Assembly: GCA_951406725.2 (NCBI GenBank)
Contig: OX597815.1
Span: 149,668,001-149,732,000 of the forward strand
Origin: Octopus vulgaris
Taxonomy: Eukaryota
DNA length: 64,000 bases
Direction: 5' to 3'
Part shown: piece by piece, positions 3,307 through 48,747 of the stretch
How positions within the stretch are numbered: position 1 is the first letter of the stretch
Layout of the letters: every line of letters begins with the position of its first letter
The notes under the pieces: model-generated
Told to the model about the DNA's origin: nothing
Databases searched by the model: none
Seen by the model: only the letters and a program-made list of their open reading frames with translations
Translations under genes and position numbers: made by a program

Positions 3307-3782
3307 TGAAAGAATGGAGTTGAACGACGATTTAACAAAATTCCTTTATTCTCGACATATGTTTCGAAGACTGCATATTCCTAATTCCGAAGGAATAAAG
3401 GGTGCATTATGCCGCCTTCTCATCAGGAAAGACAAGGAGCTTATGTCAGCATCTTGACGAACAAAGACTTTTAGATGGCTGCTCACACGGGGTCCATAGT
3501 GATAATGAGTGTTTCTTTAAAATATTCCGTTATAAGCAGTGACGTGAAAATTGGTTGAATGGAGAAGATTCTAAAAAGTTCAAGAGTTCAAAAAAGGTTG
3601 GAAGGGGAAAGATCTAAGAATAAGAAGGTGACAGGGTGCAAGTCGTATGTATGGTGATGTGTTATTGTTTGCTTTTGCTAATGAGATTGAGTGCCTATGA
3701 GATTGAGTGCCTATGAGATTGAGTGCCTACCCGGGTATCGGTTAACCGAATTATCCATACTAGGATAATTCATTCAACTACT
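3307..3782 (-). mobile_element. Penelope-like terminal-repeat (pLTR) fragment between TA tracts
   Basis: Contains a minimal HHR followed immediately by AATAAA on the minus strand; flanked by (TA)n; internal 16-bp x3 tandem at 3681-3729. Confidence 0.65.
3350..3430 (-). ncRNA. Minimal type I hammerhead ribozyme, intact core
   Basis: Minus: TTTC-CTGATGA-GAAGGC...GTCTTC-GAAAC-ATAT-GTC-GAGA; stems I, II and palindromic III (ACATATGT). Confidence 0.85.
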
Positions 3783-3837
3783 TATATATATATATATATA
3801 TATATATATATATATATATATATATATATATATATAT

Positions 3838-4320
3838 AACGTAAAGTGTACTAGCCATCTGAATGTGGCTAGCCACTGGGGGTGGGTGTTACTGACGCTT
3901 TTAGCCCCAGGAGATCGACGTCACCAGCTGGCCTTAGACACAATTTCTCTGTTCTTATGATATTTGCAAAGGGAGGTCAACCTCCCTCGAAAACCTAAGT
4001 GATACATACGGACTATAGTTTCAAGGTTTTTGCCTCTCGTCAACGCATGGTAAACACCGGTTTTCGATGAAGGAGAGAAAGGCAAAAACCTTGAAACAAT
4101 AGTCCGTATGTATCACTTAGGTTTTCGAGGGAGGATGACCTCCCTTTGCAAATATCATAAGAACACAGACATTGTGTCTAAGGCCAGCTGGTGACGTCGA
4201 TCTCCTGGGGCTAAAAGCGTCAGTAACACCCACCCCCAGTGGCTAGCCACATTCAGATGGCTAGTACACTTTACGTTGTCGAGCGCTTACTGTTTACATC
4301 TCGTTCGGAGATTTATTAAT
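3838..4320. mobile_element. Foldback PLE-derived element: ~198-bp inverted arms (3838-4035 / 4080-4277), 44-nt spacer, flanked by (TA)n
   Basis: Arms are near-perfect reverse complements; HHR spans the left arm and spacer. Confidence 0.85.
4005..4049 (-). ncRNA. Minimal type I hammerhead ribozyme (U3 variant)
   Basis: Minus: CATGCG-TTGACGA-GAGG-CAAAAA-CCTT-GAAAC-TATA-GTC-CGTATG. Confidence 0.85.
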
Positions 4321-4357
4321 GATATATATATATATATATATATATATATATGCTAAT

Positions 4358-4656
4358 GCGTGGAGGCGCAATGTCCGAGTGGTTAGGGCAGCTGACTCGT
4401 GGTTGTAGGATCGCGGTTTCGATTCCCAGACCGCGCATTGTGAGGGTTTATTGAGCGAAAACCCCTAAACCTCCACGATGCTTCGCCAAGGAGTTTTGGT
4501 GAACCCTGCTGTACTCTTTCGCCACAACTCTCTCTCTCTCTCTTTCTTCTGTTGGCCTGCTCGTCATTTGAATGCTAAAATAATGCGAAGCGCATTGAGA
4601 CAAGCGATGTGTGGCAACATCTGTTAGCCTGGTCGGTCACGATGATCACGGTGATA
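4358..4656 (+). mobile_element. tRNA-derived SINE, family 2
   Basis: A-box-like tgtccgagtgg, B-box-like gtttcgattcc; homologous to 13055-13277 and 26893-27201. Confidence 0.85.
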
Positions 4657-45920: not shown

Positions 45921-46029
45921 AAGAAAAGGAGAATGTGGGGCGATATAATCTCAGAACGCAAAAACCTGAAGAAGTATGGCAAAGTAATATTTTGGAATCA
46001 GTAGCAATTTTGCCATCATCATAAGATGT

Positions 46030-46452
46030 AAAATTATGATGAGGATAATTATGACGATGAGGAGGAGGATAATGACGATGAGGAAGTGGACGGGGAGGGA
46101 GTAGACGACGACGATCGCGATGACCACGACGGTGATGATGATGAAGACGATGATGAAGTTGGTAGTGATGATGAAAGAAAGGAAGAAAAAGAAGAAGAAG
46201 AGGAAAAGAGAGACGAGGAAGAGAATGAAGAAGGAGGAGGAGAAGAAGCAGAAGAAGAAGAAGAAGAAGAAGAAGTAGAAGAGGAAGTAGAAGAAGAAGT
46301 AGAAGAAGAAGAAGAAGAAGAAGAAGAAGAAGAAGAAGAAGAAAAAGAAGAAGAAGAAGAAGAGGAAGAAGAAGAAGAAGAAGAAGAAGAAGAAGAAGAA
46401 GAAGAAGAAGAAGAAGAAGAAGAAGAAGAAGAAGAAGAAGAGGAAGCAGAAG
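46030..46452. repeat. Compound (GAY/GAG/GAA)n trinucleotide repeat
   Basis: Direct read. Confidence 0.9.
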
Positions 46453-47924
46453 AAATGCGATTTACTCTTGTACCGTTGTGTGAACTGCACTTTAAAAGGA
46501 TGAACATTTGTGGCGTTGCATCTGAGACGTAAAAGAAAATAGAATGAAAAGGATACGTGACAGCTATAAACTAGAAGTACTCTTCAGATGACACGCAGTC
46601 TTTAAGACTACATTTCTTTCTTTAGACACAAAGAAATACAAATATCTGTTTGCCATAGATGCAAACCCATAAATAGCCACACGGACGCATTTATACATGC
46701 ACGCCTCAGAGATATATATATATATATATATATATATATATATATATATATATATATATATATATATATATCGATAGATAGAAAGAAAGATAGATAGATA
46801 GATAGATAGATAGATAGATAGATAGATAGATAGACGGGTAGATAGATAGATAGATAGATAGTTAGATATGTTTCTTTATTAGCCTCACAGGGCTGCACAC
46901 AGACAGAACAAATTACAAGGTAGAGCTTTTCTTTTGGGGGTAAAAAAAGGGGGTTGGTTTTCGATCAAAAGGGATCGTAAAAGAAAAGAAAGAGGACAAA
47001 AAAAAGGGGAGGATTTAAAAAAAAGGGGGGAGAGGGAAAAATAGATAGATAGATAGATAGACAGAGAGAGAGAGAGGAGAGAGAGAGAGAGGGACACTGA
47101 TATATATGTACACGCATACACGCACACGTATATCACGTAGATATGTACGACGCATATATATGTGCGTATAGGTCTATGTATAAATGTATATTCATATTTA
47201 GACTTATAGTTGTTCTTCACAATATATGGAATGCAGGCGGCTATTAATGCACTCTGCATGCTATATGCCAAAACAAGCGGAAATAAGGCAGCCATTTTTG
47301 ATTGACCTAATACTAAATCATTCTTCTTAGTTCACAAAGATACAAATATGTGACTTGTGGTCCATGTGATGAGATCAATCTTTTAAGCTACCTTTATGTG
47401 CAAATATTGAATATAGATTTCTTCATTCGAATTAATATAAAATAAGTGTATATTTTGTACAGCCAAATCCTATAAAGCTAAAAGTTTAAAGCCATACCTT
47501 TAAATCTATTAGATTTAAAAAGTCGTCGAGCTGAGCTGGACCAAACTAAACCTAACGCAATACATTACTTTCGCATCGGAAAAGGGAATACTTTTCATTC
47601 TGAGCCACATGGACAGCCTATGCATGTCAGACAGTTCTCTCTACGACTTAGGAATTCATTTAAACTCTTGAGGTACATTATACTTTCAGATATCGACGTA
47701 GATTTACAGCCTTTGAATTTATCATTTCTCCAGCTTATTACGGTTTGGGAATAATCAATTTTTTTTCATTATCTTAACTATAGTTGCTGTTTTTTATCTC
47801 TCGACCAGCCCGAATAGAAAATGTCTTAGATGTTGTCTCCTATTTATTTATGTCAGTAGCGTGGAATTTGAGAAATGTATACATGAGGCTTTTAGCAGAT
47901 CATATAAAAACATTATCGCTGTGT

Positions 47925-48747
47925 ATTAATAGTTATCGCCAAGATACCATGGCAGTCCAGAAAAATAGGACGAATGCTGCCTTTGATTTCTAATTCTCTC
48001 TAAAGGAGACGACGGCAGCAGTACTGGATATTAATAGTTATCGCCAAGCTAACATAGCAACCCAGAAAAATAGGACGAATGCTGCCGTTGATTAGCTCCA
48101 AGACCAACTCTTCGAAGGATTACTTACTTAAATTCAGTGGAAGGATTATTTACCTAAATTCAGTGGAAACTCTCCTTTTCGATGGTTATAATAGATAGAG
48201 GTTTGTGTATCACATAGCTAGCTAGAGGCGATGGCCTCTTCGAGCTAAACAACGGCAGCATTCGTCCTATTTTTCTGGACTGCCATGTTAGCTTGGCGAT
48301 AACCATTAATATCCAGTACCGCTACCGTAGTCTCCTTTAGAGAGAATTAGAAAAAATGATATTATTATTATTATTTTTTTTTTTTTTTTGTTTTGGAAAA
48401 CCAGTGGATGTATTCCACTGAATTTAAGTAAATAATCGTTCGAACAGTCGGTCGGCAGCGACGCCTCCTGGGTTCGTCTACTCCACATTGATAAGAGGCA
48501 AACACCTTGAAACTAGTCTGTGGATGCCAGACCAGCAAAGGGAAGCTGCTGATTTCACCTGTTCGAAGGTTATAATAGACAGAGGTTTGTGTGTTACATA
48601 GCTAGCTAGAGGCGATCCCCTCTTCAAGTTAATCAACGGCAGCATTCGTCCTAATTTTTCTGGACTGTCATATTAGCTTGGCGATAACTATTAATATCCA
48701 GTACCACCACAGTAGTCTCCTCTAGAGAGAACTAGAAATAATGATAT
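47925..48747. mobile_element. Rearranged array of PLE pLTR segments (minus-strand pieces 47925-48168, plus-strand copies 48178-48362 and 48400-48747)
   Basis: Block ggcagcattcgtcctatttttctggac..ttggcgataac occurs four times in two orientations; HHR at 48482. Confidence 0.82.
48482..48524 (+). ncRNA. Minimal hammerhead, G8A variant (likely inactive), same family as 4005-4049
   Basis: TCCACA-TTGATAA-GAGG-CAAACA-CCTT-GAAAC-TA-GTC-TGTGGA. Confidence 0.72.

What the first reader, a model, noticed from the sequence alone, without database searches (positions are those of the whole stretch)
3350..48524. About ten hidden minimal hammerhead ribozymes from several unrelated repeat families in 45 kb
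Seen: complete or near-complete type I HHR folds at 3350-3430(-), 4005-4049(-), 27396-27440(-), 33829-33899(+), 34151-34201(-), 34488-34539(+), 36322-36412(-), 37326-37416(-) and 48482-48524(+), plus a remnant at 36910. Three have canonical CUGANGA/GAAA/GUH cores, one has a U3 variant, and the rest carry single core substitutions. Stems I and II pair despite unrelated sequences. Established: minimal type I HHRs mark the terminal repeats of Penelope-like elements. Inference: about one HHR per 5-6 kb would make PLE-derived ribozymes a major unannotated component of this genome. No PLE RT or GIY-YIG ORF is visible here, so these copies are non-autonomous or truncated.
Basis: partly seen in the sequence, partly recalled or inferred. 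Interest (0 to 1): 0.75.

Follow-up and report, generated by a model that had tools for sequence, protein, structure and literature searches.

The report
Penelope-type hammerhead ribozyme motifs in repeats
The window really holds nine minimal hammerhead ribozyme motifs that sit in seven abundant repeat families of an octopus-like genome, one of them the tail of a Penelope-like retrotransposon; this kind of ribozyme-bearing retroelement is already described in other animals, and cutting by these copies is predicted, not tested.

Summary
Observation confirmed. A descriptor scan finds 3 canonical type I hammerheads (3350-, 33829+, 37326-) against 0-1 hits in 200 shuffles. It finds 3 one-substitution motifs with palindromic loop III against a mean of 0.01 in shuffles. 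Each of the nine motifs lies in a high-copy repeat family. Family copies show that the window's "substitutions" are either decay of canonical ribozymes (36322) or family-wide variants (U3-A8, U3.G8, C4).

In a 41-sequence alignment, stems I and II, palindromic loop III and the 3-8 tertiary pair covary. One family (3350) is the 3' region of an autonomous element found elsewhere in the genome. [quoted passage not shown] In the loci fetched the other six families share only about 0.35-0.6 kb and have no linked ORF; they share the (TA)n ends and head-to-head architecture.

The "remnant at 36910" is not supported. The window's density does not extrapolate: 600 kb of random genome holds 8 canonical motifs, about one per 75 kb or roughly 37,000 per genome. 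The phenomenon, including the U3-A8 variant and opposite-strand pairs, was described by Cervera and de la Pena (2014). I class this as a new member of a known kind. This scan has noted similar elements in other genomes.

The parts
3350..3430 (-). Canonical type I minimal hammerhead: CUGAUGA, extended stem II, GAAA, C-AUAU-G, GUC.
   Evidence: Strict scan. 33 of 37 family copies examined keep the strict fold.
3298..3699 (-). 5'- and 3'-truncated copy of the 3' region of an autonomous Penelope-like element (family F3350).
   Evidence: Coverage by 29 family loci. Full copies run about 160 bp further and end in (TA)n. The ORF-bearing copy is L148.
3727..3782 (+). Inverted, extremely 5'-truncated copy (3'-terminal about 56 bp) of the same F3350 element, abutting (TA)n.
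   Evidence: It is the reverse complement of the family's 3' terminus.
3783..3838 (.). (TA)n microsatellite into which the F3350 fragment and the F4005 element both end, tail to tail.
   Evidence: Sequence.
4005..4049 (-). Hammerhead with a U3.G8 core (UUGACGA), loop III UAUA, GUC.
   Evidence: 21 of 29 family copies fold with a U3 core. Covariation.
3839..4276 (-). F4005 element (3839-4076) plus an inverted partial copy (4085-4276). Together they form a foldback with 192-bp arms at 98% identity.
27396..27440 (-). Decayed relative of the F4005 hammerhead (CUGACGC, weak stem II, loop CCGG), at the centre of inverted repeats 27232-27338 / 27446-27555.
33827..33901 (+). Canonical hammerhead: CUGACGA, GAAA, C-CG-G, GUC.
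   Evidence: Weak Rfam Hammerhead_3 match of 25.1 bits. 9 of 24 family copies keep the strict fold.
34078..34613 (.). Head-to-head pair of F34488 elements (85% identity) carrying decayed variant hammerheads at 34151-34201(-) and 34488-34539(+).
36321..36413 (-). Mutated copy (A9>U, C1.1>U) of a family whose majority has a canonical CUGAAGA...GUA|C hammerhead. The stretch shared with other copies is 36290-36609.
   Evidence: 12 of 23 strict.
37326..37416 (-). Canonical hammerhead: CUGAUGA, GAAA, C-AAUU-G, GUA.
   Evidence: 34 of 38 family copies keep the strict fold.
37273..37594 (-). 5'-truncated F37326 element. It ends in (TA)n and is inserted in the internal microsatellite of another abundant repeat (halves at 37110-37272 and 37641-37817).
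48482..48524 (+). Hammerhead with a U3-A8 core (UUGAUAA), loop III UA, GUC. The window copy has G.U at 10.1-11.1 where the family majority has G-C.

Best explanation
The nine motifs are genuine minimal type I hammerhead ribozyme sequences carried by retrotransposon copies of the Penelope-like kind; they are predicted to cut the element's RNA only when two copies pair through their palindromic loop III, and this cutting is untested here.

Shown:
- The motifs are far above chance.
- Each lies in a family with over a thousand first-look candidate places in the genome.
- Stems I and II, loop III and the 3-8 pair covary across copies.
- Where I read the 3' ends (four families), the copies end in or beside (TA)n; five of the seven families include head-to-head inverted pairs among the loci examined.

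Inferred:
- The six families with no linked ORF are non-autonomous or truncated elements moved by PLE machinery through target-primed reverse transcription at (TA)n.
- The ribozyme would process multimeric or paired transcripts.
- Most window copies (27396, 34151, 34488, 36322) are likely dead relics.
For: Motif statistics:
- Strict scan: 3 hits against 0/200 and 1/200 shuffles.
- One-substitution scan with palindromic loop III: 3 hits against a mean of 0.01.

Families:
- 1175-2876 first-look candidates per family, of which 40 were scored each. Identity to the window copy is 81-98% among the loci fetched.

Covariation on 41 sequences (40 distinct):
- 92.7% of cells are paired, against 83.0% in shuffles (0 of 500 reach the observed value).
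- 12 of 15 pairs show changes on both sides.
- Slid registers give 26-57% paired.
- The 3-8 pair is UA 24, UG 12, CG 3, other 1.

The autonomous element (L148):
- Inverted 270-bp piece carrying a hammerhead on the minus strand, then two overlapping reading frames of 520 and 280 aa in different frames (one ORF only if read through a frameshift), then a hammerhead on the plus strand.
- The model has pLDDT 73.8. Its best PDB matches are telomerase RTs, E 5e-9.
- GIY-YIG scores 16.6-19.5 bits in three copies, below Pfam's cut-off of 22.6.
- An alignment with homologues shows the RT motifs (FDIxxFYPSI, YRDD), the GIY-YIG blocks and CxxC...CxH.

Other:
- (TA)n at the 3' ends.
- Predicted dimers of 4005 and 48482 form an 8-bp and a 6-bp intermolecular helix III.
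- Passages read in PMC4209133 describe the same features: min-HHRs in PLE pLTRs, a U3-A8 variant, opposite-strand pairs 100-700 bp apart, palindromic loop 3, and action as dimers.
- Passages read in PMC8557442 give (TA)n targets and the inverted 5'-truncated copy.
Against: - No cleavage or RNA evidence was obtained.
- Rfam's hammerhead models do not reach their gathering scores anywhere in the window. Only 33829 gives a sub-threshold match, 25.1 against 48.5 bits.
- Six of the seven families were not linked to any PLE ORF in the 19-29 loci examined per family (+/-1.5 kb each).
- The GIY-YIG Pfam scores are below the curated cut-off.
- Pfam RVT_1 does not hit the ORF, and a profile search of PDB sequences found nothing.
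- Many both-side changes separate just two families, so independent events are few.
- Family copies are young, so conservation of the core within a family is weak evidence of selection.
- The C4 core of the 34151/34488 family departs at a position that, from recall of classical mutagenesis, is poorly tolerated.
Confidence: 0.85

Rival explanations
1. The short families are animal non-LTR retrozymes: tandem repeats whose transcripts self-cleave, circularise and are copied back as tandem cDNA. On this view they are not truncated PLE copies.
For: In the loci fetched, homology among copies extends only about 0.35-0.6 kb and no ORF is linked. They carry type I hammerheads with palindromic loop III. 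A few direct tandems exist: L082 in F37326, and C12:22344952/22345304 and C1:50686779/50687092 in F4005. A 2026 preprint, of which I read the abstract only, argues that retrozymes derive from PLE pLTRs, so the two readings overlap.
Against: Direct tandems are rare: 1 of 29 F37326 loci, against 7 with an inverted second copy. Most copies are single, with variable 5' truncation. One F37326 locus (L151) has arms of at least 1.1 kb. No circular or permuted RNA joint was seen, though the data could not have shown one.
Confidence: 0.1
2. The palindromic cases (3839-4276, 34078-34613, 27232-27555) are foldback or MITE-type DNA transposons, and their hammerhead-like stretches are incidental.
For: Long inverted arms (192 bp at 98% identity; 265 bp at 85%) with the motif near the centre or in both arms.
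Against: The same units occur mostly as single, non-palindromic copies: 18 of 19 F34488 loci, and many 238-bp F4005 hits. They end in (TA)n on one side only and have variable 5' ends. The hammerhead covaries across subfamilies. Head-to-head pairs are a described PLE insertion form (PMC8557442, passages).
Confidence: 0.03
3. The motifs are chance matches to a short degenerate pattern in AT-rich, repeat-rich DNA.
For: Rfam finds nothing at gathering score. One looser hit (29128) is indeed a chance match. The 36910 'remnant' is not above chance.
Against: Shuffle controls. Family-wide conservation and covariation. 8 strict hits in 600 kb of random genome, against 2 in total over 20 shuffled sets.
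Confidence: 0.02

Closest known systems
Minimal hammerheads (min-HHR) in the pseudo-LTRs of metazoan Penelope-like elements (Cervera and de la Pena 2014, PMC4209133; passages read)
   Same: Type I topology. Helix III of 1 bp with a 2-4 nt palindromic loop. Long helix II in some families. An extra nucleotide before stem II (F34488). A U3-A8 core variant. Mostly single motifs from truncated elements. Pairs 100-700 bp apart on opposite strands. Thousands of copies per genome.
   Different: The host is an octopus-like cephalopod. My searches found no paper on hammerheads in cephalopods. Here loop III is always present, whereas the minimal descriptor of that paper needs none. One abundant family carries U3.G8 and another carries C4.
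Canonical EN+ Penelope-like elements with C-terminal GIY-YIG (Penelope/Poseidon, Neptune, Nematis, Hydra clades; Craig et al. 2021, PMC8557442; passages read)
   Same: RT followed by a C-terminal GIY-YIG with the CCHH motif. An inverted 5'-truncated copy upstream. A hammerhead near the 3' end. Insertion at (TA)n.
   Different: In the L148 element an asparagine-rich low-complexity stretch lies where four homologues have the cysteine linker upstream of GIY-YIG. I did not determine the clade, as I built no tree.
Animal non-LTR retrozymes (Cervera and de la Pena 2020, PMC7229834; passages read)
   Same: Short, AT-rich, ORF-less repeats with type I hammerheads that need a partner copy.
   Different: Retrozymes are defined by direct tandem arrays and abundant circular RNA. 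Here copies are mostly single or inverted, and no RNA evidence could be obtained.

Membership tests
Hammerhead ribozyme, type I | Conserved core boxes CUGANGA and GAAA, and a UH cleavage site, in the type I order | tested here: met
   Fully met by 3350, 33829 and 37326. Met with one change by 4005, 27396 and 36322. Met with the compensatory U3-A8 by 48482. The 34151/34488 pair departs at U4 and at other positions.
Hammerhead ribozyme, type I | Helices I, II and III supported by covariation, and the C3-G8 tertiary pair | tested here: met
   on the 4005/27396/48482 group only: 92.7% paired; 12 of 15 pairs changed on both sides; 3-8 pair UA 24, UG 12, CG 3, other 1. The other families are too uniform to test.
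Hammerhead ribozyme, type I | Score at or above the Rfam gathering threshold (RF00163 and clan) | tested here: not met
   0 matches in the window at gathering score. The best is Hammerhead_3 at 25.1 bits against 48.5 for 33829. RF00163 does reach its threshold at 6 other places in this genome.
Hammerhead ribozyme, type I | Site-specific self-cleavage | not testable with these tools
   Only a predicted dimer fold is available.
Penelope-like elements (EN+) | Reverse transcriptase of the telomerase-related type | tested here: met
   For the F3350 parent only. The model of P0005 is best matched by telomerase RTs, E 5e-9, TM 0.42-0.48. RT motifs are visible in the alignment. Pfam RVT_1 gives no hit. 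No phylogeny was done.
Penelope-like elements (EN+) | GIY-YIG endonuclease with CCHH motif, C-terminal to the RT | tested here: inconclusive
   Pfam GIY-YIG scores 16.6, 18.1 and 19.5 bits in three copies, below the cut-off of 22.6. The motif blocks and CxxC...CxH align with four longer homologues.
Penelope-like elements (EN+) | Pseudo-LTR or inverted 5'-truncated copy architecture with a hammerhead near the 3' end | tested here: met
   L148 has an inverted 270-bp piece with a hammerhead, then the ORF, then the 3' region with a hammerhead. Head-to-head pairs occur among the loci examined in five of the seven families: F3350, F4005, F37326, F33829 and F36322; for F34488 the window itself holds one.
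Penelope-like elements (EN+) | A link between each hammerhead family and a PLE ORF | tested here: not met
   Met for F3350. No ORF link was found for the other six families in the loci examined.
Animal non-LTR retrozymes | Direct tandem arrays of the hammerhead-bearing unit | tested here: not met
   1 of 29 F37326 loci is a direct tandem. Most copies are single or inverted.
Animal non-LTR retrozymes | Unit-length linear and circular RNAs | tested here: inconclusive
   Only contigs of runs whose RNA nature is a guess were available. No joints were seen.

The most novel reading that the evidence does not exclude
Octopus-like genomes hold a whole guild of young, short, ORF-less elements, at least six families with over a thousand first-look candidate places each. 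These elements parasitise Penelope-like machinery, home to (TA)n microsatellites, and keep a working hammerhead under selection. The evidence for selection is that the core's 3-8 pair switches between C-G, U-A and U.G. On this reading, part of what is annotated as unclassified SINEs in cephalopods is ribozyme-bearing PLE-dependent retroelements, and the ribozyme is needed for their mobility.
Probability: 0.35. Interest if true: 0.5.

Novelty: new member of a known kind. Interest (0 to 1): 0.3.

Why it matters
The finding adds a cephalopod-type genome to the animals whose genomes carry tens of thousands of Penelope-type hammerheads. I estimate about 37,000 canonical motifs, from 8 in 600 kb.

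It also shows that Rfam-based annotation misses all of them in this window. The hammerhead is a handy marker for sorting short "unclassified" repeats of such genomes into PLE-related families.

The co-existing core variants (C3-G8, U3-A8, U3.G8, C4) in young high-copy families offer natural material for testing which cores still cut, and whether cutting matters for retrotransposition.

It does not change what is known about how these elements work.

Tried and rejected
- **Rfam, whole window.** At gathering score there were no hits. At E<=10 the 150 rows listed (of 285 matches) were only microsatellite-driven miRNA-like noise.
- **Rfam, 13 kb around the motifs.** One sub-threshold hammerhead match.
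- **29128-29200(+).** Found by my loose scan, then rejected: 0 of 12 family copies have the core.
- **36910 remnant.** Not above shuffles. My first attempt aligned only the TA repeat.
- **Sequencing runs.** No RNA holder is listed. The four runs I laid (X1, X2, X3, X6) are contigs of guessed kind and showed no joints or ends, so they say nothing on expression or cleavage.
- **Discrete units.** I first took the window-defined stretches (238, 322 bp and so on) for discrete units. The flanks showed that copies extend 100-200 bp further 5' and are variably truncated.
- **ORF identification by sequence.** Pfam on the ORF of L148/L150 gave no RVT_1. phmmer and a profile search against PDB sequences gave nothing. 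Pfam on four homologues gave nothing.
- **5' ends at the cleavage site.** Only a few copies start there: q63-68 in 4 F4005 copies, and q283 in 1 F36322 copy. This is too few to claim anything.
- **The window's own RT** (2237-2968-) is LINE-type and is not the parent of these elements.
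Full report
**The observation.** The window lies in a 2.8-Gb, 227-contig eukaryotic genome at G000:C2:149668001-149732000. It has about 34% G+C and many (TA)n and (TG)n tracts. All nine motifs are at the coordinates given.

I wrote a type I descriptor: CUGANGA, stem II of at least 3 bp, GAAA, a 1-bp helix III closing a 2-6 nt loop, UH, and stem I of at least 4 bp.
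- It finds exactly three loci, 3350-, 33829+ and 37326-. It finds none in 200 global and one in 200 block-wise dinucleotide shuffles.
- One substitution in the first box adds 4005-, 27398- and 36321-. Shuffles give a mean of 0.15, or 0.01 when loop III must be palindromic.
- All six window hits have such a loop: AUAU, UAUA, CCGG, CG, ACGU, AAUU.
- A looser scan also recovers 48482+ and gives 7 hits against 0.07 in shuffles.
- The seventh hit, 29128+, is a chance match, because none of 12 family copies has the core.
- The "remnant at 36910" shares a 10-mer with the 3350 motif, but its alignment score is within the shuffled range.

Rfam's curated models miss all of these at gathering score. Only 33829 gives a weak Hammerhead_3 match of 25.1 bits against a threshold of 48.5.

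**The motifs belong to repeat families.** I searched the genome with each motif plus flanks. The first look gave 1175 to 2876 candidate places per query, 40 of which were scored each time. All scored places matched, at 81-98% identity among the loci fetched. Aligning the ribozyme part of the fetched copies changes how the window's "substitutions" read:
- The 36322 family is canonical in most copies (CUGAAGA, GUA|C). The window copy has two private changes.
- The 48482 family carries UUGAUAA throughout. This is U3 with A8, the compensatory form of the C3-G8 tertiary pair.
- The 4005 family carries UUGACGA (U3.G8) in its young copies. Older subfamilies carry UUGACAA or UUGAUAA (U3-A8) and, in one locus, CUGAAGA.
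- The 34151/34488 family carries CCGAUGA with an A on each side of a 7-bp stem II and a palindromic AGCU loop. Both window copies are further damaged: the loop is AGCA in one, and GAAA has become GAUA in the other.

Among the copies examined, the strict or U3 fold is kept by 33/37 (F3350), 21/29 (F4005), 34/38 (F37326), 9/24 (F33829), 13/23 (F36322), 8/20 (F48482) and 0/21 (F34488).

**Covariation.** I aligned 41 ribozyme sequences of the 4005, 27396 and 48482 group. The three copies cut at an inversion junction were kept in. For the hammerhead structure, 92.7% of cells pair, against 83.0% after shuffling partners (0 of 500 shuffles reach this). 12 of 15 pairs show changes on both sides, and registers slid by 1-3 columns give 26-57%.
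- Stem I switches between CAUGCG/CGUAUG, CGUACG/CGUGCG, CGUGUG/CACGCG and UCCACA/UGUGGA.
- Loop III switches between UAUA and UGCA.
- The 3-8 pair reads UA 24, UG 12, CG 3, other 1.

Two caveats apply. Many of these changes separate just two families, so independent events are few. The other families are too uniform to test.

**What the elements are.** The 3350 family gives the direct link. In several loci a long ORF lies upstream of the ribozyme segment. Three of these ORFs give sub-threshold Pfam GIY-YIG hits of 16.6-19.5 bits against a cut-off of 22.6.

One locus (L148) shows the whole arrangement:
- an inverted 270-bp copy of the 3' region with a hammerhead on the opposite strand;
- reading frames of 520 and 280 aa that overlap in different frames, so a single ORF only if a frameshift is read through;
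- about 575 bp further on, the hammerhead on the sense strand.

Full copies run about 210 nt beyond the ribozyme and end in ...CAACTACTT followed by (TA)n.

The 520-aa part has no Pfam hit and no PDB sequence match. Its homologues include one protein with RVT_1, others with PF26215, and cephalopod proteins auto-named "GATA zinc finger" or "myb-like". An AlphaFold model built on 11 sequences (pLDDT 73.8) is best matched in the PDB by telomerase catalytic subunits (E about 5e-9, TM 0.42-0.48). Bacterial and group II RTs follow.

The alignment shows the RT blocks (FDIxxFYPSI, GLYRDDGL, FLDVTL). It then shows the GIY-YIG blocks and a CxxC...CxH motif. The octopus-type copies have an asparagine-rich stretch where four homologues have a cysteine linker.

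A telomerase-like RT, a C-terminal GIY-YIG/CCHH, an inverted 5'-truncated copy, a hammerhead near the 3' end and (TA)n targets are the features given for EN+ Penelope-like elements in PMC8557442 (passages) and PMC4209133 (passages).

**The window copies.** The 3350 copy (3298-3699-) is cut at both ends. An inverted 56-bp 3'-terminal stub (3727-3782+) precedes it. That stub and the 3' end of the 4005 element meet tail to tail in one (TA)n tract, 3783-3838.
- The 4005 element has an inverted partial copy (4085-4276). This makes a foldback with 192-bp arms at 98% identity.
- 34078-34613 is a head-to-head pair.
- The 37326 element sits in the internal microsatellite of another abundant repeat.

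In the loci examined, homology among copies of the six other families extends about 0.35-0.6 kb, with variable 5' ends and no ORF. One F37326 locus has 1.1-kb inverted arms. Second copies nearby are mostly inverted: 7 of 29 F37326 loci, against 1 direct tandem.

The window has no match to five proteins of this PLE lineage. Its one RT (2237-2968-, RVT_1 45.6 bits, with zf-RVT at 3-359-) is LINE-type.

**Likely mechanism.** This part is inferred. The elements are transcribed and copied into (TA)n sites by target-primed reverse transcription, using the PLE RT and GIY-YIG nuclease. 5' truncation and template switching produce the stubs and head-to-head pairs.

With a 1-bp helix III, a lone hammerhead should be inactive. 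Two copies can pair through the palindromic loop, and cofolding two copies of 4005 or 48482 gives exactly that: an 8-bp or 6-bp intermolecular helix III with stems II intact. This is the dimer model of PMC4209133, which also reports low activity in vitro.

In inverted pairs the two ribozymes are on opposite strands. Cutting would then need tandem units or pairing in trans.

No RNA evidence could be obtained. The runs offered are contigs of guessed kind and show no joints or ends.

**Density.** 60 pseudo-random 10-kb stretches (600 kb, no N) hold 8 strict canonical hammerheads, against 2 in total over 20 shuffled sets. That is about 13 per Mb. By my arithmetic this comes to some 37,000 per genome, with a Poisson 95% range of roughly 16,000-74,000. 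The window has 47 per Mb.

Ribozyme segments homologous to the window's families number 5 in the 600 kb, against 10 in the window. The window is therefore a local cluster, and one per 5-6 kb does not hold genome-wide.

**Novelty.** The phenomenon is in print for other animals, including the U3-A8 variant, opposite-strand pairs, palindromic loop 3 and massive copy numbers (PMC4209133, passages). The related retrozyme idea is in PMC7229834 (passages) and in a 2026 preprint, of which I read the abstract only.

My searches for 'octopus' with 'hammerhead ribozyme' returned 5 papers, 4 of them listed, and none of those is about this. A 2026 repeat annotation of Octopus vulgaris contains none of the words hammerhead, ribozyme or retrozyme. 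I did not read the supplements of these papers.

Earlier notes of this scan describe similar hammerhead mini-elements in other genomes. There are none for this genome.

**Verdict.** It is a new member of a known kind.

Noticed in passing
window 3-2968 (-): A LINE-type retrotransposon fragment lies just downstream of the 3350 element: RVT_1 at 2237-2968 (45.6 bits) and zf-RVT at 3-359. It is not related to the PLE lineage.
   Followed up: partly
window 37110-37272 and 37641-37817: These are the two halves of an abundant repeat. Copies lie at 17758-18213, 25194-25647, 30496-30875, 58105-58500, 8733-9037 and 20883-21259. The repeat normally carries an internal (TA)n tract. Here the tract is occupied by the 37326 hammerhead element.
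   Followed up: partly
window 29128-29200 (+): A hammerhead-like near-match (CUGAGAA ... GUAA) inside an old repeat family. The other copies lack the core, so it is a chance match.
   Followed up: yes
window 46182-46454: A (GAA)n-rich tract of about 91 units within a purine-skewed region at 44-48 kb (GC skew 0.285). It may be acidic low-complexity coding sequence or a simple repeat.
   Followed up: no
window 40937-41354: A 184-bp tandem repeat, 2.3 copies at 84% match.
   Followed up: no
window 50110-50209: An assembly gap of 100 N.
   Followed up: no
window 4357-4649; 26899-27206; 13049-13277; 22900-23064: Another interspersed repeat lies next to both the 4005 and the 27396 foldbacks, but in opposite relative orientation. 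It also occurs without a hammerhead.
   Followed up: no
L148 3177-4019 and homologues (alignment A3): In the octopus-type PLE an asparagine-rich low-complexity stretch lies where four homologues have the cysteine linker upstream of GIY-YIG. Public cephalopod proteins of this lineage are auto-named 'GATA zinc finger domain-containing' or 'myb-like', probably because of this stretch.
   Followed up: partly
L003, L196 (elsewhere in the genome): A further hammerhead family (UGUAC CUGAYGA ... GAAAC GAYC GUU GUACA, about 106 nt) reaches the Rfam Hammerhead_1 threshold and also turned up in the random sample. It is absent from the window.
   Followed up: no
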